Shown piece after piece: positions 7,731 through 63,026 of a stretch of DNA of 64,000 bases; positions within the stretch are counted from its first letter, which is position 1; each line of letters starts with the position of its first letter. The translations under genes and the position numbers were made by a program. The notes beneath the pieces are model-generated. The model saw only the letters and a program-made list of their open reading frames with translations, ran no database searches and was not told where the DNA came from. The DNA is from Escherichia coli (GTDB lineage: Bacteria > Pseudomonadota > Gammaproteobacteria > Enterobacterales > Enterobacteriaceae), in assembly GCF_024502345.1 (NCBI RefSeq), contig NZ_JALDNN010000001.1; one strand, written 5' to 3'.

Positions 7731-9272
<1,542 letters not shown>

Positions 9273-9357
9273 CCTTAAAGAAGCGTACTTTGTAGTGCTC
9301 ACACAGATTGTCTGATAGAAAGTGAAAAGCAAGGCGTCTTGCGAAGCAGACTGATAC

Positions 9358-9433
9358 GTCCCCTTCGTCTAGAGGCCCAGGACACCGCCCTTTCACGGCG
9401 GTAACAGGGGTTCGAATCCCCTAGGGGACGCCA
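9358..9433 (+). tRNA. gltW: tRNA-Glu (UUC) in the 16S–23S spacer
   Basis: GTCCCCTTCGTCTAGAGGCCCAGGACACCGCCCTTTCACGGCGGTAACAGGGGTTCGAATCCCCTAGGGGACGCCA; 76 nt with encoded CCA; anticodon loop CTTTCAC. Confidence 0.95.
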
Positions 9434-9626
9434 CTTGCTGGTTTGTGAGTGAAAGTCACCTGCCTTGATATCTCAAAACTCATCTTCGGGTGATGTTTGA
9501 GATATTTGCTCTTTAAAAATCTGGATCAAGCTGAAAATTGAAACACTGAACAACGAAAGTTGTTCGTGAGTCTCTCAAATTTTCGCAACACGATGATGAA
9601 TCGAAAGAAACATCTTCGGGTTGTGA

Positions 9627-12529
<2,903 letters not shown>

Positions 12530-12621
12530 ACAACGCCGAAGGTGTTTTGGCGGATGAGAGAAGATTTTCAGCCTGATACAGATTAAATCAGAACGCAGAA
12601 GCGGTCTGATAAAACAGAATT

Positions 12622-12741
12622 TGCCTGGCGGCCGTAGCGCGGTGGTCCCACCTGACCCCATGCCGAACTCAGAAGTGAAACGCCGTAGCGCCGATGGTAG
12701 TGTGGGGTCTCCCCATGCGAGAGTAGGGAACTGCCAGGCAT
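12622..12741 (+). rRNA. rrfG: 5S ribosomal RNA
   Basis: TGCCTGGCGGCCGTAGCGCGGTGGTCCCACCTGACCCCATGCCGAACTCAGAAGTGAAACGCCGTAGCGCCGATGGTAGTGTGGGGTCTCCCCATGCGAGAGTAGGGAACTGCCAGGCAT; 120 nt. Confidence 0.97.
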
Positions 12742-37079: not shown

Positions 37080-37811
37080 ATGGCTGAATTACTGTTAGGC
37101 GTCAACATTGACCATATTGCAACGCTGCGTAACGCACGCGGTACTGCTTACCCGGATCCGGTGCAGGCGGCGTTTATTGCCGAGCAGGCGGGAGCGGACG
37201 GCATTACCGTGCATTTACGTGAAGATCGCCGCCACATTACTGACCGCGATGTGCGCATCCTGCGGCAGACGCTGGATACCCGAATGAATCTGGAGATGGC
37301 AGTGACCGAAGAGATGCTGGCGATCGCCGTTGAGACGAAGCCACATTTTTGCTGTCTGGTACCGGAAAAGCGTCAGGAAGTCACGACCGAAGGCGGCCTG
37401 GACGTCGCAGGGCAGCGTGACAAAATGCGAGATGCCTGCAAACGTCTGGCGGATGCCGGGATTCAGGTTTCTCTGTTTATCGACGCCGATGAAGAGCAGA
37501 TCAAAGCTGCGGCAGAGGTTGGCGCACCGTTTATCGAGATCCACACTGGTTGCTATGCTGATGCCAAAACTGACGCCGAACAGGCGCAAGAGCTGGCGCG
37601 TATCGCCAAAGCCGCAACCTTTGCCGCAAGCCTCGGTCTGAAAGTTAATGCTGGTCACGGTCTGACCTATCACAACGTAAAAGCCATTGCCGCCATCCCT
37701 GAGATGCACGAACTGAATATCGGTCATGCCATTATTGGCCGTGCGGTGATGACCGGGCTGAAAGAAGCCGTAGCAGAGATGAAGCGTCTGATGCTGGAAG
37801 CGCGTGGCTAA
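37080..37811 (+). CDS. pdxJ: Pyridoxine 5'-phosphate synthase
   Basis: ATG at 37080 gives the 243-aa [21 protein letters not shown]... protein. Confidence 0.93.
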
Positions 37812-38191
37812 TGGCAATATTAGGTTTAGGTATGGATATTGTGGAGATCGCTCGCATAGAAGCGGTGATCGCCCGATCCGGTGATCGCCTGGCACGCCGC
37901 GTATTAAGCGATAACGAATGGGCTATCTGGAAAACGCACCACCAGCCGGTGCGTTTTCTGGCGAAGCGTTTTGCTGTGAAAGAAGCGGCGGCAAAAGCGT
38001 TTGGCACCGGGATCCGCAATGGTCTGGCGTTTAATCAGTTTGAAGTATTCAATGATGAGCTCGGCAAACCACGGCTACGGCTATGGGGTGAGGCATTAAA
38101 ACTGGCGGAAAAGCTCGGCGTTGTAAATATGCATGTAACGCTTGCCGATGAGCGGCACTATGCTTGTGCCACGGTAATTATTGAAAGTTAA
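37811..38191 (+). CDS. acpS: Holo-[acyl-carrier-protein] synthase
   Basis: 126-aa [35 protein letters not shown]...; ATG overlaps the pdxJ stop (TAATG). Confidence 0.95.
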
Positions 38192-38217
38192 AAATAATAC
38201 CGTTCTATTTATAAAGT

Positions 38218-38256
38218 AAAACCCCCGAACTGGTAAGGAACGGGGGTTTTACTTTT
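38218..38256 (+). terminator. Rho-independent terminator of the rnc-era-recO-pdxJ-acpS cluster
   Basis: Hairpin AAACCCCCGAACTGGTAAGGAACGGGGGTTT followed by TACTTTTT. Confidence 0.7.
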
Positions 38257-38611
38257 TAACTTTAATTTTGTGCAGCATGCACCCTCAACAACAGCGATTA
38301 TGGATCAGTGTGCTTATCTTTTACAAGCAACTTGCAATCTTTAGCATAAAAACTCGAGCCTTTACGAAGAAAGCAATATTGATGGAAAGATTTACGTGAC
38401 CGCCAATTCGTAAGTACATTAAAATTGGCTTCGTTATTGAAGATTTTGCTGTGCTTTACACCATGCCACAGAATTCCCCCATTGAAACGAGTGGTGTCGT
38501 CAAAGCTCTGGTGTGGAGTGCAGCATGCACCCTCAATAACTCGCACGTTCAGTTTTGGGGAGATGTAAGGGCTAATCTGAACGGCTGCATTCCTTGTTTA
38601 AGGAAAAACGA

Positions 38612-38692
38612 ATGACTGATTGCCGATACCTTATTAAACGGGTCATCAAAATCATCATTGCTGTTTTACAGCTGATCCTTCTGTTCTTGTAA
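38612..38692 (+). CDS. shoB: Type I toxin ShoB (26-aa hydrophobic membrane peptide)
   Basis: ATG ACT GAT TGC CGA TAC CTT ATT AAA ... = MTDCRYLIKRVIKIIIAVLQLILLFL*; below the ORF-track size cut-off; lies in the acpS–yfhL intergenic region where shoB/ohsC sits in K-12; a GC hairpin follows. Confidence 0.8.
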   Translation: MTDCRYLIKRVIKIIIAVLQLILLFL

Positions 38693-38886
38693 CACCAGGA
38701 AACGTACTTAAGGCGCGTCCGGTGAACCAGCCTGGCGCGCCTTTAATAATTCTAAATAAGTGTTTGTGCAGATATTGTTGTAATTCATTAAATGAATAAT
38801 ATTTATAATAACATTACGTAAATAAATATAATAACCTGAAGGTTTGCACAATAAAGTCATCAATATTCTGCTCCGGGAGCAGAATA

Positions 38887-53000: not shown

Positions 53001-53024
53001 ATTGATGTATCTCAAATGCATCTT
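53001..53024. promoter_or_regulatory. NsrR operator (with overlapping FNR-like half-sites) in the hmp promoter
   Basis: AAGATGCATTTGAGATACATCAAT on the hmp strand: imperfect inverted repeat matching the NsrR consensus; TTGATgtatCTCAA also resembles an FNR site; 26 bp upstream of the hmp start. Confidence 0.65.
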
Positions 53025-53170
53025 ATAAAAAATAGCCCTGCAATGTAAATGGTTCTTTGGTGTTTTTCAGAAAGAATGTGATGAAGTGAAAAATTTGCAT
53101 CACAAACCTGAAAAGAAATCCGTTTCCGGTTGCAAGCTCTTTATTCTCCAAAGCCTTGCGTAGCCTGAAG

Positions 53171-53186
53171 GTAATCGTTTGCGTAA
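53171..53186. promoter_or_regulatory. Candidate PurR box upstream of glyA
   Basis: Reverse complement TTACGCAAACGATTAC matches the PurR consensus over ACGCAAACG but diverges in the second half. Confidence 0.35.
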
Positions 53187-53302
53187 ATTCCTTTGTCAAG
53201 ACCTGTTATCGCACAATGATTCGGTTATACTGTTCGCCGTTGTCCAACAGGACCGCCTATAAAGGCCAAAAATTTTATTGTTAGCTGAGTCAGGAGATGC
53301 GG

Positions 53303-54556
53303 ATGTTAAAGCGTGAAATGAACATTGCCGATTATGATGCCGAACTGTGGCAGGCTATGGAGCAGGAAAAAGTACGTCAGGAAGAGCACATCGAACTGAT
53401 CGCCTCCGAAAACTACACCAGCCCGCGCGTAATGCAGGCGCAGGGTTCTCAGCTGACCAACAAATATGCTGAAGGTTATCCGGGCAAACGCTACTACGGC
53501 GGTTGCGAGTATGTTGATATCGTTGAACAACTGGCGATCGATCGTGCGAAAGAACTGTTCGGCGCTGACTACGCTAACGTCCAGCCGCACTCCGGCTCCC
53601 AGGCTAACTTTGCGGTCTACACCGCGCTGCTGGAACCAGGTGATACCGTTCTGGGTATGAACCTGGCGCATGGCGGTCACCTGACTCACGGTTCTCCGGT
53701 TAACTTCTCCGGTAAACTGTACAACATCGTTCCTTACGGTATCGATGCTACCGGTCATATCGACTACGCCGATCTGGAAAAACAAGCCAAAGAACACAAG
53801 CCGAAAATGATTATCGGTGGTTTCTCTGCATATTCCGGCGTGGTTGACTGGGCGAAAATGCGTGAAATCGCTGACAGCATCGGTGCTTACCTGTTCGTTG
53901 ATATGGCGCACGTTGCGGGCCTGGTTGCTGCTGGCGTCTACCCGAACCCGGTTCCTCATGCTCACGTTGTTACTACCACCACTCACAAAACCCTGGCGGG
54001 TCCGCGCGGCGGCCTGATCCTGGCGAAAGGTGGTAGCGAAGAGCTGTACAAAAAACTGAACTCTGCCGTTTTCCCTGGTGGTCAGGGCGGTCCGTTGATG
54101 CACGTAATCGCCGGTAAAGCGGTTGCTCTGAAAGAAGCGATGGAGCCTGAGTTCAAAACTTACCAGCAGCAGGTCGCGAAAAACGCTAAAGCGATGGTAG
54201 AAGTGTTCCTCGAGCGCGGCTACAAAGTGGTTTCCGGCGGCACTGATAACCACCTGTTCCTGGTTGATCTGGTTGATAAAAACCTGACCGGTAAAGAAGC
54301 AGACGCCGCTCTGGGCCGTGCTAACATCACCGTCAACAAAAACAGCGTACCGAACGATCCGAAGAGCCCGTTTGTGACCTCCGGTATTCGCGTGGGTACT
54401 CCGGCGATTACGCGTCGCGGCTTCAAAGAAGCAGAAGCGAAAGAACTGGCTGGCTGGATGTGTGACGTGCTGGACAGCATCAATGATGAAGCCGTTATCG
54501 AGCGCATCAAAGGTAAAGTTCTCGACATCTGCGCACGTTTCCCGGTTTACGCATAA
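53303..54556 (+). CDS. glyA: Serine hydroxymethyltransferase
   Basis: ATG at 53303 (CAGGAG SD 6 nt upstream) gives the 417-aa [22 protein letters not shown]... protein with PLP-lysine motif TTTTHKTL. Confidence 0.97.
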
Positions 54557-54595
54557 GCGAAACGGTGATTTGCTGTCAATGTGCTCGTTGTTCAT

Positions 54596-54693
54596 GCCGG
54601 ATGCGGCGTGAACGCCTTATCCGGCCTACAAAACTTTGCAAATTCAATATATTGCAATATCCGTGTAGGCCTGATAAGCGTAGCGCATCAGGC
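54596..54693. repeat. BIME: two inverted REP elements (second copy)
   Basis: TGCCGGATGCGGCGTGAACGCCTTATCCGGCCTAC and inverted GTAGGCCTGATAAGCGTAGCGCATCAGGC, same arrangement and linker core as the copy at 24429..24526; followed by hairpin AAGGCTTCC-TTCG-GGAAGCCTT (54713..54736). Confidence 0.85.
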
Positions 54694-54753
54694 AATCTTA
54701 GGTATGTGATCATCAAGGCTTCCTTCGGGAAGCCTTTCTACGTTATTGCGCCA

Positions 54754-55947
54754 TCAAATCTGTCGTAACTGCGCCTCAACATACAAATAGCCAATCCCCA
54801 ACACCTGTTGTGCGCGGCTTAATTGCCCAAAGCCAATTTGCGTTGCTTTCACGCTCGGCCCTTCGTCGCGGTCGAACGGGTTAAATCCCGTCTGGCGAAT
54901 AATGGTATTAAGCCAGTGCTCACCAAAGGCACAACTGCGACCGTACAACCAAATCTGATTAATATTGAGGATGTTGAGGAAGTTATACAGACTCAAACCA
55001 ATGGCATTGGCACTGCGATCAACCCAGCTGGTGATCCACGGTTCTCCACTCTGCCAGGCAGCGATTAACTGCGCGGTTGTCAGTTTTTCAGGATCAAGCT
55101 GAGTATTAACCGGTTGTGATTTTAGCCATACCCGCGCCTGTTTTTTTAATGCACTTAACGAGGCGACGGTTTCCAGGCAGCCGTAACGTCCACAGTCGCA
55201 GACGACGCCATCCGGATTAACGATGGTGTGACCAATCTGTCCGCTACCATACAAACTGCCGCGATAAATTTGCTCGTTAATCACGAACGACGAGCCAATG
55301 CCGTAATCAACGTTGATCACGCAGAAATCCCGTTCCTGCGAATTATTTTGCCATTTCTCCGCCAGCGCCAGCATCACGCAGTCATTATCGACCATCACCC
55401 GAATGCCCAGCTTCTCTTCCAGCAGATACTTCACCTCAACCGGCGTTGTCCACGGCGCTTGCGGCATGGTTTGCGACACGCCGGTCACCGGATCAACCTG
55501 ACCGTGGATTGCCAGCGCCAGATTGATGGTGCGGTCCGGCCACAATTTACGGTGGCGATGCCAGCATTTTTCGATTTCGGACAGCAGCGCCTGCGGCGTC
55601 GGTGCATCAATCTGTAAATACTCAAATTCACCTTTCGGACTTAAACAAGCATTAGCAACCTGACACTCAATACTGGTGGGCGTCACGTTCAGGCACAGCG
55701 TCCAGTCACCTTCCGGCGCAATCAGCCATGTACCGCTACTATGCCCGCGCGTCTGGCTTTCATCGTCGATATTCACCACCCGTTTTTCGCTTTCCAGTTC
55801 CTGCAAAATATTACTGACTGCCGGAATCGAAATTTGCGCCAGCCGGGCCAGCGTTGATTTATTGGCGCGCTTTTGCCGGTACAGCAGTTCCAGAATCACG
55901 CATTTGTTATGGTGGCGAATCTGTTGATTGTTAATGCAGGCTCTCAT
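54754..55947 (-). CDS. yphH: ROK-family (NagC/XylR-like) transcriptional regulator / sugar kinase homologue
   Basis: 397-aa protein MRACINNQQIRHHNKCVILELLYRQKRANKSTLARLAQISIPAVSNILQEL... with N-terminal HTH and ROK zinc motif CDCGRYGCLE; the GTG at 55953 is an alternative start. Confidence 0.8.
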   Translation of the reverse strand: MRACINNQQIRHHNKCVILELLYRQKRANKSTLARLAQISIPAVSNILQELESEKRVVNIDDESQTRGHSSGTWLIAPEGDWTLCLNVTPTSIECQVANACLSPKGEFEYLQIDAPTPQALLSEIEKCWHRHRKLWPDRTINLALAIHGQVDPVTGVSQTMPQAPWTTPVEVKYLLEEKLGIRVMVDNDCVMLALAEKWQNNSQERDFCVINVDYGIGSSFVINEQIYRGSLYGSGQIGHTIVNPDGVVCDCGRYGCLETVASLSALKKQARVWLKSQPVNTQLDPEKLTTAQLIAAWQSGEPWITSWVDRSANAIGLSLYNFLNILNINQIWLYGRSCAFGEHWLNTIIRQTGFNPFDRDEGPSVKATQIGFGQLSRAQQVLGIGYLYVEAQLRQI

Positions 55948-56064
55948 CTTCACTAAACCTTGTTTAGTTAATTGCGTGATTATTCCGCGAAAACATTGCC
56001 AGATTGTTCAATACACTGCCACAAATCTTTTAATTCAGTATGTCTTGTTAATATTGAGGGCACC

Positions 56065-59000
56065 ATGACTCCAGTAAAAGTGTGGCAAGAGCGCGTTGAG
56101 ATCCCGACCTATGAAACCGGGCCGCAGGATATACATCCCATGTTCCTGGAAAATCGCGTTTATCAGGGATCGTCCGGCGCGGTTTATCCCTACGGCGTGA
56201 CCGATACGCTGAGCGAGCAGAAAACCCCGAAATCCTGGCAGGCGGTGTGGCTGGAAAACGACTACATCAAAGTGATGATCCTGCCGGAACTGGGCGGTCG
56301 GGTGCATCGCGCATGGGATAAAGTGAAACAACGCGATTTTGTCTATCACAATGAAGTCATTAAACCTGCGCTGGTGGGGCTGCTGGGACCGTGGATCTCT
56401 GGCGGGATTGAGTTTAACTGGCCGCAACACCATCGCCCGACCACCTTTATGCCCGTTGATTTCACCCTCGAAGCCCATGAAGACGGCGCACAGACGGTGT
56501 GGGTCGGCGAAACGGAGCCGATGCACGGTTTACAGGTGATGACAGGTTTCACCCTGCGCCCTGACCGGGCGGCGCTGGAAATCGCCAGCCGCGTCTATAA
56601 CGGCAACGCCACGCCGCGTCATTTCTTGTGGTGGGCCAACCCGGCAGTGAAAGGGGGGGAAGGGCATCAGAGCGTTTTCCCGCCGGATGTGACTGCGGTG
56701 TTTGATCACGGCAAACGGGCCGTCTCCGCTTTCCCCATCGCCACCGGCACTTACTACAAAGTGGACTACTCCGCTGGAGTGGACATTTCTCGCTATAAAA
56801 ATGTGCCCGTTCCAACCTCATATATGGCCGAAAAATCGCAGTACGATTTTGTTGGCGCGTGGTGTCACGATGAAGATGGCGGTTTGCTACACGTTGCCAA
56901 CCACCATATTGCGCCAGGTAAAAAGCAGTGGAGCTGGGGACACAGTGAATTTGGCCAGGCGTGGGATAAGAGCCTAACTGATAATAACGGCCCGTATATC
57001 GAACTGATGACCGGTATTTTTGCCGATAACCAGCCCGATTTTACCTGGCTTGATGCTTACGAAGAGAAGCGTTTTGAGCAGTATTTCCTGCCTTATCATT
57101 CTTTGGGCATGGTGCAAAATGCCTCCCGCGATGCGGTGATAAAACTCCAGCGTAGTGAGCGGGGGATTGAGTGGGGGCTGTATGCCATCTCTCCGTTGAA
57201 CGGATACCGCCTGGCGATCCGCGAAATCGGCAAATGCAACGCGTTACTTGATGATGCCGTGGCACTGATGCCTGCGACCGCCATCCAGGGCGTGTTGCAC
57301 GGTATCAATCCTGAAAGGCTGACCATTGAGCTCTCCGATGCCGACGGCAATATTGTACTGAGTTATCAGGAACATCAGCCGCAAGAGTTGCCGTTGCCGG
57401 ACGTCGCCAAAGCGCCACTGGCAGCACAAGACATTACCAGTACAGATGAAGCCTGGTTTATCGGTCAGCATCTGGAGCAATATCATCACGCCAGCCGTTC
57501 ACCGTTCGATTACTACCTGCGCGGCGTGGCGCTGGATCCGCTGGATTACCGCTGTAACCTGGCGCTGGCGATGCTGGAATATAACCGCGCAGATTTCCCG
57601 CAAGCGGTGGCGTATGCCACTCAGGCTCTGAAACGCGCACATGGGCTGAACAAAAATCCGCAGTGCGGACAGGCGAGTTTGATTCGCGCCAGTGCTTACG
57701 AACGTCAGGGACAATATCAACAAGCCGAAGAGGATTTCTGGCGTGCGGTCTGGAGCGGCAACAGTAAAGCCGGAGGCTATTATGGTCTGGCACGACTGGC
57801 GGCGCGTAATGGTAACTTCGACGCGGGTCTGGATTTTTGCCAACAAAGTCTTCGCGCCAGCCCAACCAATCAGGAAGTGCTTTGCCTGCATAATCTGCTG
57901 CTGGTGTTAAGTGGTCGTCAGGACAACGCGCGTTTGCAGCGCGAGAAACTGCTGCGCGATTATCCGCTGAACGCCACTCTGTGGTGGCTGAACTGGTTCG
58001 ATGGTCGTAGCGAATCAGCTCTCGCGCAGTGGCGCGGTCTGTGTCAGGGACGCGACGTTAACGCCCTGATGACCGCCGGGCAACTGATTAACTGGGGAAT
58101 GCCCACCCTGGCGGCAGAGATGCTGAACGCACTGGACTGCCAGCGCACGCTGCCGCTTTACCTGCAAGCCAGCTTGCTGCCGAAAGCCGAACGTGGCGAA
58201 CTGGTCGCAAAAGCCATTGATGTCTTTCCGCAGTTTGTCCGTTTCCCGAATACGCTGGAAGAAGTGGCGGCGCTGGAGAGTATTGAAGAGTGCTGGTTTG
58301 CTCGCCATTTACTGGCCTGCTTCTACTACAACAAACGTAGCTACAACAAAGCCATTGCCTTATGGCAACGTTGCGTAGAGATGTCGCCGGAGTTTGCCGA
58401 CGGCTGGCGCGGGTTAGCGATCCATGCGTGGAATAAGCAACACGATTATGAGCTGGCCGCGCGTTATCTTGATAATGCTTATCAGCTTGCGCCGCAGGAT
58501 GCACGTCTGCTTTTCGAACGGGATTTGCTTGATAAGTTAAGTGGAGCCACACCGGAGAAACGACTGGCGCGTCTGGAAAATAATCTGGAAATTGCGCTGA
58601 AACGCGACGACATGACCGCAGAACTGCTCAATTTATGGCATCTCACGGGGCAGGCAGACAAAGCGGCGGACATTCTCGCCACGCGCAAATTCCACCCGTG
58701 GGAAGGCGGGGAAGGGAAGGTCACCAGTCAGTTTATCCTCAACCAGTTATTACGCGCCTGGCAGCATCTTGATGCCAGACAGCCGCAGCAGGCCAGCGAA
58801 CTGCTTCATGCCGCGCTGCATTATCCGGAGAATTTAAGCGAAGGCCGTTTACCGGGGCAAACTGATAACGACATCTGGTTCTGGCAGGCGATATGCGCCA
58901 ACGCGCAGGGCGATGAAACTGAAGCGACGCGTTGTTTACGTCTGGCGGTGACCGGCGATCGCACCATTAACATCCACAGTTATTACAACGATCAGCCGGT

Positions 59001-59346
59001 TGATTATCTCTTCTGGCAAGGAATGGCGCTGCGACTGCTGGGCGAACAACACACCGCACAGCAACTGTTTAGTGAAATGAAACAGTGGGCGCAAGAGATG
59101 GCGAAAACCAGTATTGAGGCGGATTTCTTTGCTGTTTCACAACCTGATCTGTTGTCGCTGTATGGCGATTTACAACAGCAGCATAAAGAAAAATGCCTGA
59201 TGGTGGCGATGCTGGCGTCCGCGGGACTCGGGGAGGTTGCGCAATATGAGTCTGCTCGCGCTGAATTGACGGCGATTAATCCGGCCTGGCCGAAAGCGGC
59301 ATTATTCACCACCGTGATGCCTTTTATTTTTAACCGCGTTCACTAA
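56065..59346 (+). CDS. yphG: Large uncharacterised protein with C-terminal TPR-like repeats
   Basis: ATG at 56065 gives the 1093-aa MTPVKVWQERVEIPTYETGPQD... protein; function unknown. Confidence 0.8.
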   Translation: MTPVKVWQERVEIPTYETGPQDIHPMFLENRVYQGSSGAVYPYGVTDTLSEQKTPKSWQAVWLENDYIKVMILPELGGRVHRAWDKVKQRDFVYHNEVIKPALVGLLGPWISGGIEFNWPQHHRPTTFMPVDFTLEAHEDGAQTVWVGETEPMHGLQVMTGFTLRPDRAALEIASRVYNGNATPRHFLWWANPAVKGGEGHQSVFPPDVTAVFDHGKRAVSAFPIATGTYYKVDYSAGVDISRYKNVPVPTSYMAEKSQYDFVGAWCHDEDGGLLHVANHHIAPGKKQWSWGHSEFGQAWDKSLTDNNGPYIELMTGIFADNQPDFTWLDAYEEKRFEQYFLPYHSLGMVQNASRDAVIKLQRSERGIEWGLYAISPLNGYRLAIREIGKCNALLDDAVALMPATAIQGVLHGINPERLTIELSDADGNIVLSYQEHQPQELPLPDVAKAPLAAQDITSTDEAWFIGQHLEQYHHASRSPFDYYLRGVALDPLDYRCNLALAMLEYNRADFPQAVAYATQALKRAHGLNKNPQCGQASLIRASAYERQGQYQQAEEDFWRAVWSGNSKAGGYYGLARLAARNGNFDAGLDFCQQSLRASPTNQEVLCLHNLLLVLSGRQDNARLQREKLLRDYPLNATLWWLNWFDGRSESALAQWRGLCQGRDVNALMTAGQLINWGMPTLAAEMLNALDCQRTLPLYLQASLLPKAERGELVAKAIDVFPQFVRFPNTLEEVAALESIEECWFARHLLACFYYNKRSYNKAIALWQRCVEMSPEFADGWRGLAIHAWNKQHDYELAARYLDNAYQLAPQDARLLFERDLLDKLSGATPEKRLARLENNLEIALKRDDMTAELLNLWHLTGQADKAADILATRKFHPWEGGEGKVTSQFILNQLLRAWQHLDARQPQQASELLHAALHYPENLSEGRLPGQTDNDIWFWQAICANAQGDETEATRCLRLAVTGDRTINIHSYYNDQPVDYLFWQGMALRLLGEQHTAQQLFSEMKQWAQEMAKTSIEADFFAVSQPDLLSLYGDLQQQHKEKCLMVAMLASAGLGEVAQYESARAELTAINPAWPKAALFTTVMPFIFNRVH

Positions 59347-59722
59347 ATCTTATTAACTGTAATATTTGAGCGGCACGCGCTGCCGCTCATCACAAAATAA
59401 TTAGAATAAGCCGTTGTAAATAAAAACCCTACAGGAGGCACTATGCCTAAAAAAATGAGAACAACCCGTAATTTATTATTAATGGCTACGCTATTGGGTA
59501 GCGCACTATTTGCCAACGCTGCGGATAAAGAAATGACCATTGGCGCAATATACCTTGATACCCAGGGATATTACGCTGGAGTGCGTCAGGGCGTTCAGGA
59601 TGCGGCAAAAGATTCTTCAGTACAGGTACAGTTAATTGAAACTAACGCCCAGGGTGATATTTCGAAAGAAAGTACCTTTGTTGATACCCTCGTGGCGCGT
59701 AATGTCGATGCCATTATTTTAT

Positions 59723-59731
59723 CGGCAGTGT
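59723..59731. repeat. 9-bp target-site duplication (left copy) of the IS insertion
   Basis: CGGCAGTGT immediately left of the IS left inverted repeat; identical copy at 60789..60797. Confidence 0.9.
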
Positions 59732-60788
59732 GGCTTTGTTGAATAAATCGAACTTTTGCTGAGTTGAAGGATCAGATCACGTATCTTCCCGACAACGCAG
59801 ACCGTTCCGTGGCAAAGCAAAAGTTCAAAATCACCAACTGGCCCACCTACAATAAAGCCCTCATCAACCGTGGCTCCATAACTTTCTGGCTGGATGATGA
59901 AGCTATTCAGGCCTGGTATGAGTCAGCAACACCTTCTTCACGAGGCAGACCTCAGCGCTATTCTGACCTTGCCATCACGACTGTGCTGGTCATTAAACGC
60001 GTATTCAGGCTGACCCTGCGCGCTGCGCAGGGCTTTATTGATTCCATTTTTTCTCTGATGAACGTTCCGCTACGCTGCCCGGATTACAGCTGTGTCAGCA
60101 GGCGGGCAAAGTCGGTTAATGTCAGTTTCAAAACGCCCACCCGGGGTGAAATCGCACACCTGGTAATTGATTCCACCGGGCTGAAGGTCTTCGGTGAAGG
60201 CGAGTGGAAAGTCAAAAAGCATGGCCAGGAACGCCGCCGTATCTGGCGTAAGCTGCATCTCGCCGTTGACAGTAAAACACATGAAATCATCTGCGCTGAC
60301 CTGTCGCTGAACAACGTTACGGACTCAGAGGCCTTCCCCGGGTTAATCCGGCAAACCCACCGGAAAATCAGGTCAGCCGCCGCCGATGGCGCTTACGATA
60401 CCCGGCTATGTCACGATGAACTGCGGCGTAAGAAAATCAGCGCGCTTATCCCTCCCCGAAAAGGTGCGGGTTACTGGCCCGGTGAATATGCAGACCGTAA
60501 CCGTGCAGTGGCTAATCAGCGAATGACCGGGAGTAATGCGCGGTGGAAATGGACAACAGATTACAACCGTCGCTCGATAGCGGAAACGGCGATGTACCGG
60601 GTAAAACAGCTGTTCGGGGGTTCACTGACACTGCGTGACTACGATGGTCAGGTTGCAGAGGCTATGGCCCTGGTACGAGCGCTGAACAAAATGACGAAAG
60701 CAGGTATGCCTGAAAGCGTGCGTATTGCCTGAAAACACAACCCGCTACGGGGGAGACTTACCCGAAATCTGATTTATTCAACAAAGCC
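59732..60788 (+). mobile_element. IS903-family insertion sequence (IS5 family, IS903 group), 1057 bp, complete
   Basis: 18-bp perfect terminal inverted repeats GGCTTTGTTGAATAAATC (59732..59749 and, inverted, 60771..60788); 1057 bp; 9-bp flanking direct repeats; single 307-aa DDE transposase ORF. Matches the canonical IS903 description (1057 bp, 18-bp IRs, 9-bp duplication). Confidence 0.92.
59809..60732 (+). CDS. IS903-family DDE transposase
   Basis: GTG at 59809 gives 307 aa (M)AKQKFKITNWPTYNKALINRGSITFWLDDEAIQAWYESATPSSRGRPQRYSDLAITTVL... with acidic residues in LVIDSTG, AADGAYD and RSIAETAMYRVKQ; the track ORF from 59764 is an N-terminal over-extension. Confidence 0.9.
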   Translation: MAKQKFKITNWPTYNKALINRGSITFWLDDEAIQAWYESATPSSRGRPQRYSDLAITTVLVIKRVFRLTLRAAQGFIDSIFSLMNVPLRCPDYSCVSRRAKSVNVSFKTPTRGEIAHLVIDSTGLKVFGEGEWKVKKHGQERRRIWRKLHLAVDSKTHEIICADLSLNNVTDSEAFPGLIRQTHRKIRSAAADGAYDTRLCHDELRRKKISALIPPRKGAGYWPGEYADRNRAVANQRMTGSNARWKWTTDYNRRSIAETAMYRVKQLFGGSLTLRDYDGQVAEAMALVRALNKMTKAGMPESVRIA

Positions 60789-60797
60789 CGGCAGTGT
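60789..60797. repeat. 9-bp target-site duplication (right copy) of the IS insertion
   Basis: CGGCAGTGT immediately right of the IS right inverted repeat. Confidence 0.9.
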
Positions 60798-61514
60798 CTG
60801 AAAATGGCAGTAGCCGTACCGTTCGTCGCGCCAGTGAAGCGGGTATTCCGGTGATTTGCTACAACACCTGTATTAATCAAAAGGGGGTCGATAAATATGT
60901 CTCGGCGTATCTGGTCGGCGATCCGCTGGAATTTGGTAAAAAACTGGGTAACGCTGCCGCCGATTATTTTATTGCCAATAAAATTGACCAGCCGAAAATT
61001 GCCGTCATCAATTGCGAAGCCTTTGAAGTTTGTGTGCAGCGACGTAAAGGATTTGAAGAAGTATTAAAATCCCGCGTTCCCGGCGCGCAAATTGTCGCTA
61101 ATCAGGAAGGGACTGTTTTAGATAAAGCGATTTCCGTTGGTGAAAAACTGATTATCTCCACGCCGGATCTCAACGCCATTATGGGGGAGTCGGGCGGTGC
61201 GACACTCGGCGCGGTAAAAGCGGTACGTAATCAAAATCAGGCCGGAAAAATTGCTGTTTTCGGTTCGGATATGACAACCGAAATTGCTCAGGAGCTGGAA
61301 AACAATCAGGTGCTGAAAGCGGTAGTGGATATTTCCGGTAAGAAAATGGGCAATGCTGTTTTCGCGCAAACATTGAAGGTTATCAATAAACAAGCCGACG
61401 GTGAAAAAGTGATTCAGGTGCCAATCGATCTCTATACCAAAACGGAAGATGGTAAACAGTGGCTGGCAACGCACGTTGATGGTCTGCCCTAATCGCTGAT
61501 TCGCAGAGGTCCCT

Positions 61515-63026
61515 ATGTTCACGGCAACAGAGGCAGTCCCGGTAGCAAAAGTGGTGGCAGGAAATAAGCGTTACCCCGGCGTCGTTGCGCTGGATAACGT
61601 TAACTTCACGCTCAATAAAGGCGAAGTTCGTGCGCTGTTAGGTAAAAACGGCGCGGGCAAATCGACTCTCATTCGAATGCTTACCGGCAGCGAACGCCCG
61701 GATAGCGGTGATATCTGGATTGGCGAGACGCGACTGGAAGGTGACGAAGCTACGTTGACTCGCCGTGCCGCTGAACTGGGGGTTCGTGCGGTTTATCAGG
61801 AGTTAAGTCTGGTGGAGGGACTGACGGTGGCGGAAAACCTCTGCCTCGGTCAGTGGCCCCGCCGCAACGGCATGATTGATTACCTGCAAATGGCGCAGGA
61901 TGCCCAACGTTGCTTACAGGCGCTGGGCGTTGACGTTAGCCCTGAACAACTTGTTTCAACGCTAAGCCCGGCGCAAAAGCAACTGGTGGAAATTGCGCGG
62001 GTGATGAAGGGCGAGCCGCGCGTGGTCATTCTTGATGAACCTACCAGTTCGCTTGCCAGTGCGGAAGTTGAACTGGTGATCAGCGCGGTGAAAAAGATGT
62101 CGGCACTGGGCGTGGCGGTAATTTATGTCAGCCACCGGATGGAAGAAATTCGCCGCATTGCCTCCTGTGCCACTGTTATGCGCGATGGTCAGGTGGCGGG
62201 CGATGTGATGCTCGAAAACACCTCCACGCATCATATTGTGTCGCTAATGCTAGGGCGTGATCACGTTGATATTGCGCCGGTAGCCCCTCAGGAAATTGTG
62301 GATCAGGCCGTGCTGGAAGTCCGTGCATTACGCCATAAGCCCAAGCTGGAGGATATCAGCTTTACGTTACGTCGCGGCGAAGTGCTTGGCATTGCTGGCC
62401 TGCTGGGGGCAGGGCGCAGTGAATTGCTGAAGGCGATTGTTGGGCTGGAGACGTATGAACAGGGCGAAATTGTTATCAACGGCGAGAAAATCACGCGCCC
62501 CGATTACGGCGACATGCTGAAACGCGGCATTGGCTATACGCCAGAAAACCGCAAAGAAGTGGGGATCATTCCCTGGTTGGGCGTTGACGAAAATACAGTG
62601 CTGACCAATCGGCAAAAAATCAGCGCCAACGGAGTGCTGCAATGGTCCACCATCCGCCGCCTGACCGAAGAGGTGATGCAGCGGATGACGGTCAAGGCCG
62701 CCAGTAGCGAAACGCCCATCGGCACGCTTTCTGGTGGCAATCAGCAAAAAGTGGTGATCGGTCGTTGGGTCTATGCCGCCAGCCAGATTTTGTTGCTCGA
62801 CGAGCCAACGCGCGGCGTCGATATCGAAGCCAAACAGCAGATTTACCGTATTGTCCGTGAGCTGGCTGCCGAAGGAAAAAGCGTGGTGTTTATCTCCAGT
62901 GAAGTGGAGGAGTTGCCGCTGGTGTGCGACCGCATCCTGTTGTTACAGCACGGTACGTTCTCGCAGGAGTTTCACTCGCCGGTCAATGTGGATGAGCTGA
63001 TGTCCGCCATTCTGTCTGTGCACTGA
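61515..63026 (+). CDS. yphE: ABC transporter ATP-binding protein (two fused ATPase domains, sugar-importer type)
   Basis: 503-aa ORF with two Walker A motifs (GKNGAGKST, GLLGAGRSEL) and signature LSGGNQQK. Confidence 0.88.
   Translation: MFTATEAVPVAKVVAGNKRYPGVVALDNVNFTLNKGEVRALLGKNGAGKSTLIRMLTGSERPDSGDIWIGETRLEGDEATLTRRAAELGVRAVYQELSLVEGLTVAENLCLGQWPRRNGMIDYLQMAQDAQRCLQALGVDVSPEQLVSTLSPAQKQLVEIARVMKGEPRVVILDEPTSSLASAEVELVISAVKKMSALGVAVIYVSHRMEEIRRIASCATVMRDGQVAGDVMLENTSTHHIVSLMLGRDHVDIAPVAPQEIVDQAVLEVRALRHKPKLEDISFTLRRGEVLGIAGLLGAGRSELLKAIVGLETYEQGEIVINGEKITRPDYGDMLKRGIGYTPENRKEVGIIPWLGVDENTVLTNRQKISANGVLQWSTIRRLTEEVMQRMTVKAASSETPIGTLSGGNQQKVVIGRWVYAASQILLLDEPTRGVDIEAKQQIYRIVRELAAEGKSVVFISSEVEELPLVCDRILLLQHGTFSQEFHSPVNVDELMSAILSVH

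What the first reader, a model, noticed from the sequence alone, without database searches (positions are those of the whole stretch)
59723..60797. Complete IS903-family element inserted into yphF, with intact 9-bp target duplication
The sequence shows a 1057-bp element bounded by perfect 18-bp inverted repeats GGCTTTGTTGAATAAATC and flanked by the direct repeat CGGCAGTGT (59723..59731 and 60789..60797). It carries one 307-aa DDE transposase ORF. Removing the element and one duplication restores an uninterrupted 327-codon yphF, so this is a simple, probably recent transposition into the substrate-binding gene of the yphDEF ABC transporter. It is the only accessory DNA in the window; the split gene, possible polarity on yphE/yphD, and any outward promoter activity from the IS end are the likely consequences.
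Basis: partly seen in the sequence, partly recalled or inferred. Interest (0 to 1): 0.6.

Follow-up and report, generated by a model that had tools for sequence, protein, structure and literature searches.

The report
IS903B insertion splitting the yphF gene
A well-known 1,057-bp jumping gene (IS903B) has landed cleanly in yphF, the binding-protein gene of a poorly characterised E. coli sugar transporter; this is an ordinary, strain-specific gene knockout by a common mobile element.

Summary
Window 59732-60788 is a 1,057-bp element. It has perfect 18-bp terminal inverted repeats (GGCTTTGTTGAATAAATC) and one DDE transposase ORF (307 aa from GTG 59809, or 322 aa from TTG 59764). It is flanked by identical 9-bp direct repeats, CGGCAGTGT. 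It is 100% identical to copies annotated as IS903B in many E. coli genomes and on a Citrobacter plasmid.

Removing the element and one repeat restores a 327-codon yphF. The restored locus aligns without a gap to K-12 and to strain AH04, whose sequences overlap the two junctions by exactly 9 bp. That is a clean 1,066-bp gain.

None of 5,426 complete E. coli genomes carries this insertion, and the junction is absent from the metagenome contigs. Together with the intact repeats and intact yphF halves, this points to a recent, strain-specific event.

One addition: the site has the flank pattern TTTTA-N-[9 bp]-N-TGAAA. This fits the palindromic IS903 target preference, and only 4 such sites exist in the window.

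Polarity on yphE/yphD and outward promoter activity remain untested. I found no intrinsic terminator at the right end and only weak hybrid promoter-like sites. Verdict: real, fully explained, already known; low interest.

The parts
59732..60788 (+). Complete IS903B insertion sequence (1,057 bp; IS5 family, IS903 group)
   Evidence: 100% identity over 1-1057 to copies annotated as IS903B in many E. coli genomes and to a Citrobacter plasmid copy. The length matches the 1057 bp tabulated for IS903B in PMC8796155.
59732..59749 (+). Left terminal inverted repeat (IRL), GGCTTTGTTGAATAAATC
   Evidence: Perfect 18-bp inverted match to 60771-60788, diverging after base 18.
60771..60788 (-). Right terminal inverted repeat (IRR)
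   Evidence: Reverse complement of IRL, 18/18.
59809..60732 (+). DDE transposase gene: 307 aa from GTG 59809. The same frame is open from TTG 59764 (322 aa).
   Evidence: NCBIfam NF033579 IS5 family transposase, 357.6 bits against a cutoff of 140, covering the full model. Pfam DDE_Tnp_1_5 plus DDE_Tnp_1. D121, D193 and E259 are present. Element coordinates 78-1001 equal those tabulated for IS903B in PMC8796155. PGAP annotates the 322-aa version in an identical copy.
59723..59731 (.). Left copy of the 9-bp target-site duplication, CGGCAGTGT
   Evidence: Identical to 60789-60797. Present once in K-12 and AH04 yphF.
60789..60797 (.). Right copy of the 9-bp target-site duplication, CGGCAGTGT
59443..59742 (+). 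5' fragment of yphF: 96 native codons, then 3 codons from the IS (W-L-C) and a TGA stop inside IRL at 59740-59742
   Evidence: ORF list and translation. Identified as yphF by alignment to annotated K-12 and AH04 loci.
60798..61492 (+). 3' fragment of yphF (codons 97-327). It lacks the signal peptide. The only in-frame start near the junction is GTG 60794, with no Shine-Dalgarno-like sequence.
59717..59721 (+). Left half of the palindromic target motif (TTTTA, positions -6 to -2 from the duplication)
   Evidence: The site matches WTTYA-N-[9]-N-TRAAW. Only 4 such sites exist in the IS-free window, against 0.7 expected. The pattern was re-derived from 16 independent insertions of IS903-group elements. 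The published motif is quoted in PMC2577343.
60799..60803 (+). Right half of the palindromic target motif (TGAAA, positions +2 to +6)
61515..63026 (+). yphE (ABC transporter ATPase), intact at 503 aa, 23 nt downstream of the yphF stop. It is the gene most exposed to any polar effect.
   Evidence: ORF list. Same length as annotated yphE in K-12 and AH04.

Best explanation
A single complete copy of IS903B transposed as a simple insertion into codon 94-97 of chromosomal yphF in an E. coli strain.

Inferred mechanism. This rests on established knowledge of DDE transposases and IS903. The transposase bound the 18-bp terminal repeats and made staggered cuts 9 bp apart in the target. Repair of the gaps duplicated CGGCAGTGT. 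The site was probably chosen because its flanks (TTTTA-N-[9 bp]-N-TGAAA) fit the element's palindromic target preference.

Shown effect. yphF is split into a 99-codon 5' ORF that ends at a TGA inside the left repeat, and a 3' fragment with no signal peptide.

Inferred effect. YphF, the periplasmic binding protein of the putative YphDEF sugar ABC transporter, is lost, and with it transporter function. Expression of yphE and yphD may fall through polarity.

Timing and source. The event is evolutionarily recent and strain-specific. The donor copy was probably a plasmid-borne or chromosomal IS903B elsewhere in the same cell (inferred).
For: - Anatomy: 1,057 bp, perfect 18-bp inverted repeats and identical 9-bp direct repeats.
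- Identity: 100% over the full length to copies annotated as IS903B in E. coli chromosomes and plasmids. Matches occur in 1,993 of 5,426 genomes, with 1,059 records at 99% or more. At least 5,000 plasmid records match, mainly Klebsiella.
- Transposase: NF033579 at 357.6 bits against a cutoff of 140. Pfam DDE_Tnp_1_5 plus DDE_Tnp_1. D121, D193 and E259 are present. ORF coordinates 78-1001 equal those tabulated for IS903B in PMC8796155.
- Empty site: the in-silico excised locus matches 5,394 of 5,426 genomes over at least 80% of its length, and the listed best matches align as one piece. K-12 and AH04 overlap the two junctions by exactly 9 bp. The restored YphF is 327 aa with 3 substitutions against K-12.
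- Recency: no other complete genome has the insertion. The junction is absent from metagenome contigs.
- Target choice: the site is one of only 4 matches to WTTYA-N11-TRAAW in about 63 kb. It scores at the 99.5th percentile of a matrix built from 16 independent insertions in other genera. The published palindromic motif is quoted in PMC2577343.
- Precedent: 9-bp direct repeats and gene inactivation by IS903B are documented for mgrB in Klebsiella (PMC10513040).
Against: Nothing in the sequence contradicts this. The limits are as follows.
- Transposition competence and the loss of transporter function are inferred, not measured.
- The donor copy is unknown, because only 64 kb of the genome is available.
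- The ISfinder reference sequence (X02527) was not compared directly. The name rests on identity to PGAP-annotated copies.
- The published target motif as transcribed in PMC2577343 shows 9 N between the half-sites. The site here, and my empirical matrix, have 11. The original paper could not be read.
- Polarity is not demonstrated. No intrinsic terminator is predicted at the right end.
Confidence: 0.96

Rival explanations
1. The insertion is adaptive or regulatory rather than a neutral knockout. Either loss of YphF was selected, or the IS supplies or creates a promoter that changes expression of yphE, yphD and the genes downstream.
For: - The transposase gene has the same orientation as the operon, so transcripts leaving the IS would run into yphF', yphE and yphD.
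- No terminator-like structure is predicted at the right end.
- A weak hybrid -35/-10 (TCAACA-16-GAAAAT, 8 of 12) can be read by eye across the right junction. A 9-of-12 hybrid exists across the left junction on the minus strand.
- An independent insertion of an IS903-group element lies in yphE of strain ET670.
Against: - Promoter-like hits in the region are no more frequent than in shuffled sequence (4 found against 2.6 +/- 1.5). The right-junction site falls below the scan threshold.
- About 4,700 chromosomal IS903B-like places were counted in these genomes, so two hits in one operon are expected by chance.
- The insertion sits at a canonical preferred target, which explains the location without invoking selection.
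- Without YphF, an ABC importer of this type is not expected to function whatever the yphE/yphD level (established knowledge of binding-protein-dependent ABC importers).
Confidence: 0.04
2. The insertion is old and fixed in a lineage, and yphF is a decaying pseudogene rather than a recent knockout.
For: The chromosomal backbone is at most about 99.1% identical to any of 5,426 complete genomes over 20 kb. No close relative was therefore available to date the event, and a whole unsampled lineage could share it.
Against: - The element is 100% identical to many copies elsewhere.
- Both inverted repeats and both 9-bp repeats are perfect.
- The two yphF halves rejoin into a full-length ORF. It has only 3 amino-acid differences from K-12, all within the first 28 residues, and no frameshift or stop.
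Confidence: 0.05
3. The copy is an assembly artefact, or the end-point of an IS-mediated rearrangement or composite transposon, rather than a simple insertion.
For: IS copies are common sites of misassembly. In the draft genomes scanned, 24 of the 42 complete IS903-like elements with readable flanks lacked matching 9-bp flanks. This shows that recombination between copies is frequent.
Against: - The two flanks are adjacent in K-12 and AH04 and overlap by exactly the 9-bp duplication. A rearrangement end-point or a composite transposon would not give this.
- No second IS end occurs in the window.
Confidence: 0.01

Closest known systems
IS903B (ISfinder; IS5 family, IS903 group; reference X02527)
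   Same: - Length of 1,057 bp and one transposase ORF at element coordinates 78-1001 (307 aa), as tabulated in PMC8796155.
- 9-bp direct repeats, as reported for IS903B in PMC10513040.
- 100% nucleotide identity to copies that PGAP names 'IS5-like element IS903B family transposase'.
   Different: Nothing in the element itself differs. Only the insertion site (yphF nt 281-289) is not seen in the 5,426 complete E. coli genomes. The 70-aa antisense ORF lies at element coordinates 339-551 here, whereas PMC8796155 tabulates it at 460-672. I did not resolve this; it may be a difference in how the table was drawn up.
IS903 of Tn903 and IS102 of pSC101 (classical isoforms of the same group; recalled from the literature, not compared directly here)
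   Same: Same size class, same terminal repeats and 9-bp duplication. The same DDE transposase family, and a palindromic A/T-rich flank preference (motif quoted in PMC2577343).
   Different: These isoforms are expected to differ by a few percent in sequence. The E. coli hits fall into bands: 1,059 records at 99% or more, 1,048 at 95-99%, 327 at 90-95% and 416 at 80-90%. The copy here belongs to the top band, which carries the IS903B name.
IS903B insertions in mgrB of Klebsiella (colistin resistance)
   Same: The same element, acting by the same mechanism. It inactivates a chromosomal gene by simple insertion, and plasmids are the likely donors (PMC10513040 and PMC8796155).
   Different: The target here is yphF, a gene of unknown substrate with no known clinical phenotype. 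Nothing points to selection.
IS903-group insertion in yphE of E. coli ET670 (NZ_CP100930.1)
   Same: The same operon and the same orientation. The element is 1,057 bp with the same 18-bp ends and a 9-bp duplication, GCGAAGTTC.
   Different: It is a different isoform, 93.9% identical. It lies at a different site, inside the 5' end of yphE, and yphF is intact there. It is an independent event.

Membership tests
IS903B / IS903 group of the IS5 family | Element length of about 1,057 bp | tested here: met
   59732-60788 is 1,057 bp. IS903B is tabulated at 1057 bp in PMC8796155.
IS903B / IS903 group of the IS5 family | Perfect 18-bp terminal inverted repeats | tested here: met
   GGCTTTGTTGAATAAATC at both ends, 18/18, diverging after base 18. 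The same ends are present in the ET670 isoform and in 44 IS903-like elements from other genera.
IS903B / IS903 group of the IS5 family | 9-bp target-site duplication | tested here: met
   CGGCAGTGT on both sides, present once in the empty site of K-12 and AH04. 9-bp direct repeats are reported for IS903B in PMC10513040.
IS903B / IS903 group of the IS5 family | Single transposase ORF of 307 aa at element coordinates 78-1001 | tested here: met
   GTG 59809 to the stop ending at 60732 corresponds to coordinates 78-1001. PGAP prefers an upstream TTG, giving 322 aa.
IS903B / IS903 group of the IS5 family | IS5-family DDE transposase, by profile match above the curated threshold | tested here: met
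   NF033579 at 357.6 bits against a cutoff of 140, covering model positions 1-289 of 289. Pfam PF13737 at 4.2e-39 and PF01609 at 7.3e-33.
IS903B / IS903 group of the IS5 family | Catalytic DDE triad (D121, D193, E259 in IS903 numbering; the positions are recalled from the IS903 literature and were not re-read here) | tested here: met
   D, D and E are found at exactly those positions of the 307-aa protein.
IS903B / IS903 group of the IS5 family | At least 95% nucleotide identity to the named reference, which is the ISfinder criterion for an isoform | tested here: inconclusive
   The reference X02527 was not available. By proxy, the element is 100% identical to many copies that PGAP annotates as IS903B.
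IS903B / IS903 group of the IS5 family | Palindromic A/T-rich flanks around the duplicated 9 bp (target preference) | tested here: met
   TTTTA-T-[CGGCAGTGT]-C-TGAAA. It is one of 4 sites in the window matching WTTYA-N11-TRAAW. It scores at the 99.5th percentile of a matrix from 16 independent insertions. The motif is quoted in PMC2577343, although that table shows 9 N rather than 11.
IS903B / IS903 group of the IS5 family | Transposition activity of this copy | not testable with these tools
   Intact ends and an intact ORF identical to widespread copies make activity likely. A mating-out or papillation assay would be needed.

The most novel reading that the evidence does not exclude
The yphF hit is not a neutral accident. 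Under this reading the yph sugar-transport operon is a recurrent target of IS903-group elements. That could arise from a hot spot created by a perfect palindromic target, or from selection to silence or rewire YphDEF, with read-out from the co-oriented IS altering yphE/yphD expression.
Probability: 0.04. Interest if true: 0.25.

Novelty: already known. Interest (0 to 1): 0.08.

Why it matters
It matters very little beyond annotating this genome. yphF should be annotated as a pseudogene interrupted by IS903B, and the YphDEF transporter treated as probably non-functional in this strain. An identical, intact IS903B copy shows that the strain carries an element able to inactivate other genes, as it does with mgrB in Klebsiella. 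The junction is also a convenient strain-specific PCR marker. The one small point of general interest is that the site is a textbook example of the palindromic target preference of IS903.

Tried and rejected
- Source genome or shared insertion: I searched for the insertion in 5,426 complete E. coli genomes. The only locus covering at least 80% of the query (strain ET670) turned out to be a different IS903-group isoform inserted in yphE, not yphF. An exact scan of the left junction in metagenome contigs found nothing.
- Original target-site paper: Hu & Derbyshire 1998 (PMC107802) is not held. I used the motif as quoted in PMC2577343 and re-derived the preference from 16 independent insertions.
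- Literature on yphDEF function: the search returned only unrelated papers.
- Terminator and promoter scan of 59300-61700: hits were no more frequent than in shuffled sequence.
- RNA folds: the left end had z = -0.68 and the right end z = +0.68. Neither gives evidence for a start-codon-sequestering hairpin or for a terminator.
- Composite transposon, rearrangement end-point and old-pseudogene readings: considered and rejected on the exact 9-bp overlap of the reference flanks and on the intact ORF halves.

Full report
**1. Observation**

- The element spans 59732-60788 and is 1,057 bp.
- Its two ends are inverted copies that match perfectly for 18 bases (GGCTTTGTTGAATAAATC) and then diverge.
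- This 18-mer occurs nowhere else in the 64-kb window, so the window holds a single copy.
- Directly outside the ends lies CGGCAGTGT, at 59723-59731 and 60789-60797. These are its only + strand occurrences in the window.

One long ORF fills the element on the + strand.
- From GTG 59809 to the stop ending at 60732 it encodes 307 aa.
- The same frame is open from TTG 59764, giving 322 aa.

**2. What the element is**

A search of 5,426 complete E. coli genomes found full-length copies that are 100% identical and annotated 'IS5-like element IS903B family transposase'.
- Matches occur in 1,993 genomes.
- 1,059 records have a best match of 99% identity or more.

In the plasmid collection the 5,000-record limit was reached. 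The hits are mainly Klebsiella (3,032), Escherichia (872) and Enterobacter (482), and most of the plasmids are conjugative.

The protein evidence agrees.
- It matches NCBIfam NF033579 (IS5 family transposase) over the whole model, at 357.6 bits against a curated cutoff of 140.
- It matches Pfam DDE_Tnp_1_5 and DDE_Tnp_1.
- Asp, Asp and Glu sit at positions 121, 193 and 259 of the 307-aa protein. From memory, these are the positions the IS903 literature gives for the catalytic triad.

PMC8796155 tabulates IS903B as 1057 bp with a 307-aa ORF at 78-1001. These are exactly the coordinates of GTG 59809 to 60732 within this element. PGAP annotates the longer 322-aa version in an identical copy, WP_000654812.1. 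The difference concerns only the choice of start codon.

**3. The insertion site**

Joining 59443-59731 to 60798-61492 gives a 984-nt ORF of 327 codons.

The excised locus (1,055 nt) matches 5,394 of 5,426 genomes over at least 80% of its length. The listed best matches align as one ungapped piece and are annotated yphF/yphE.

Local alignment of the window to AH04 and to K-12 MG1655 shows alignment up to 59731 and again from 60789. The reference coordinates overlap by exactly 9 bp.
- K-12 yphF carries CGGCAGTGT once, at nt 281-289, with identical flanks.
- The restored YphF differs from K-12 YphF at 3 of 327 residues (positions 3, 25 and 28). All three lie within the first 28 residues.

The gain is therefore a clean 1,066 bp, made up of the IS plus one duplicated 9-mer.

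**4. Why there**

PMC2577343 quotes a palindromic target motif for IS903, WTTYA...TRAAW around the 9-bp duplication. The original paper could not be read, so I re-derived the preference.
- Among them were 42 complete IS903-like elements with readable flanks, and 18 of these had matching 9-bp flanks.
- This left 16 distinct reconstructed target sites. The elements with matching flanks are 85-100% identical to the one here.
- The symmetrised counts show T-rich positions -6 to -3, A at -2, and the mirror image T at +2 and A-rich +3 to +6.

The yphF site reads TTTTA-T-[CGGCAGTGT]-C-TGAAA, which fits on both sides.
- It scores at the 99.5th percentile of all positions in the window.
- It is one of only 4 exact matches to WTTYA-N11-TRAAW in the IS-free window, against 0.7 expected from base composition.

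One discrepancy remains. The table in PMC2577343 shows 9 N between the half-sites, whereas this site and my counts show 11.

**5. Consequences (shown and inferred)**

Shown:
- The yphF frame runs 96 native codons, then W-L-C, then a TGA inside the left repeat at 59740-59742.
- The 3' fragment has only a GTG at 60794, with no Shine-Dalgarno-like sequence, and lacks the signal peptide.
- yphE is intact at 503 aa and starts 23 nt after the yphF stop.
- yphD runs off the end of the window.

Inferred:
- YphF is lost, so this putative binding-protein-dependent transporter is non-functional.
- Polarity on yphE/yphD is possible through Rho, but it is not demonstrated.

The supporting scans were weak.
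- No terminator-like structure lies at the right end.
- Promoter-like matches are no more frequent than in shuffled sequence.
- Across the right junction, TCAACA-16-GAAAAT matches only 8 of 12 positions. I read this from the sequence; it is below the scan threshold.
- A 9-of-12 hybrid site exists across the left junction, facing away on the minus strand.

**6. Age and uniqueness**

No other complete E. coli genome has this insertion, and the junction is absent from the metagenome contigs. Perfect repeats, 100% identity to other copies and undamaged yphF halves all argue for a recent event.

One caveat applies. The backbone is at most about 99.1% identical to any complete genome over 20 kb. No close relative was therefore available to test whether the insertion is specific to this strain or shared by an unsampled lineage.

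**7. Rest of the window**

Against AH04 the whole window is collinear, apart from the IS, small indels and about 100 unaligned bases at 38775-38876. At that place, between shoB and yfhL, AH04 has an extra IS1A and ISKpn26 that the window lacks. Against K-12, 34809-64000 is collinear with one gap.

**8. Verdict**

This is a real, completely explained and ordinary feature: a solo insertion of the known element IS903B that knocks out yphF. The novelty class is 'already known', and interest is low.

Noticed in passing
L001 4165-5221 (E. coli ET670, NZ_CP100930.1): An independent insertion of a 1,057-bp IS903-group isoform, 93.9% identical and in the same orientation. It lies inside the 5' end of yphE and has its own 9-bp duplication, GCGAAGTTC. 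yphF is intact in that strain. Given the thousands of IS903B-like places counted in these genomes, two hits in one operon are expected by chance.
   Followed up: partly
window 40000-59731: The chromosomal backbone is at most about 99.1% identical to any of 5,426 complete E. coli RefSeq genomes over 20 kb, and yphF itself at most 99.4%. The strain appears to belong to a poorly sampled or recombinant lineage. Its identity was not established.
   Followed up: partly
window 59750-59760 and 59816-59826: A perfect 11-bp inverted repeat inside the left end of the IS brackets the GTG start at 59809. It forms the main stem of the predicted RNA fold. It could sequester the start codon in read-through transcripts, but the fold energy is not unusual (z = -0.68). 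The 3' arm also lies in coding sequence and is exact in 33 of 44 relatives.
   Followed up: partly
window 60070-60282 (- strand): A 70-aa antisense ORF lies inside the transposase gene. PMC8796155 also lists a 70-aa minus-strand ORF for IS903B, but at element coordinates 460-672 rather than the 339-551 found here. The discrepancy was not resolved.
   Followed up: no
window 38775-38876, compared with L003 1306-3384: Strain AH04 carries IS1A and ISKpn26 between shoB and yfhL. The window has about 100 bp of A/T-rich sequence there instead. The neighbouring 37460-38774 (acpS to shoB/ohsC) is only 95.4% identical to AH04, lower than the rest of the window.
   Followed up: no
window 54421-54715: REP-like palindromic repeats lie downstream of glyA. 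One unit (54577-54694) is 89% identical to a copy elsewhere in the region (AH04 L002 25951-26068). A 146-bp piece (54421-54566) also matches a second place in AH04 (L003 19160-19305).
   Followed up: no
L026 about 539-1595 (Pluralibacter gergoviae): An IS903-like element is inserted into the 3' end of another IS903-like transposase gene. The target GCGTATTGC is followed by CTGAAAAT, the same right-flank sequence as at the yphF site.
   Followed up: no
window 1166-47617: The Rfam gathering-threshold hits are all expected for this E. coli region: an rRNA operon with tRNA (7731-12739), Phe leader, RyfD, AsrC, rncO, OhsC, GlmY and ES036. Nothing unusual was found, and there were no hits inside or next to the IS.
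   Followed up: yes
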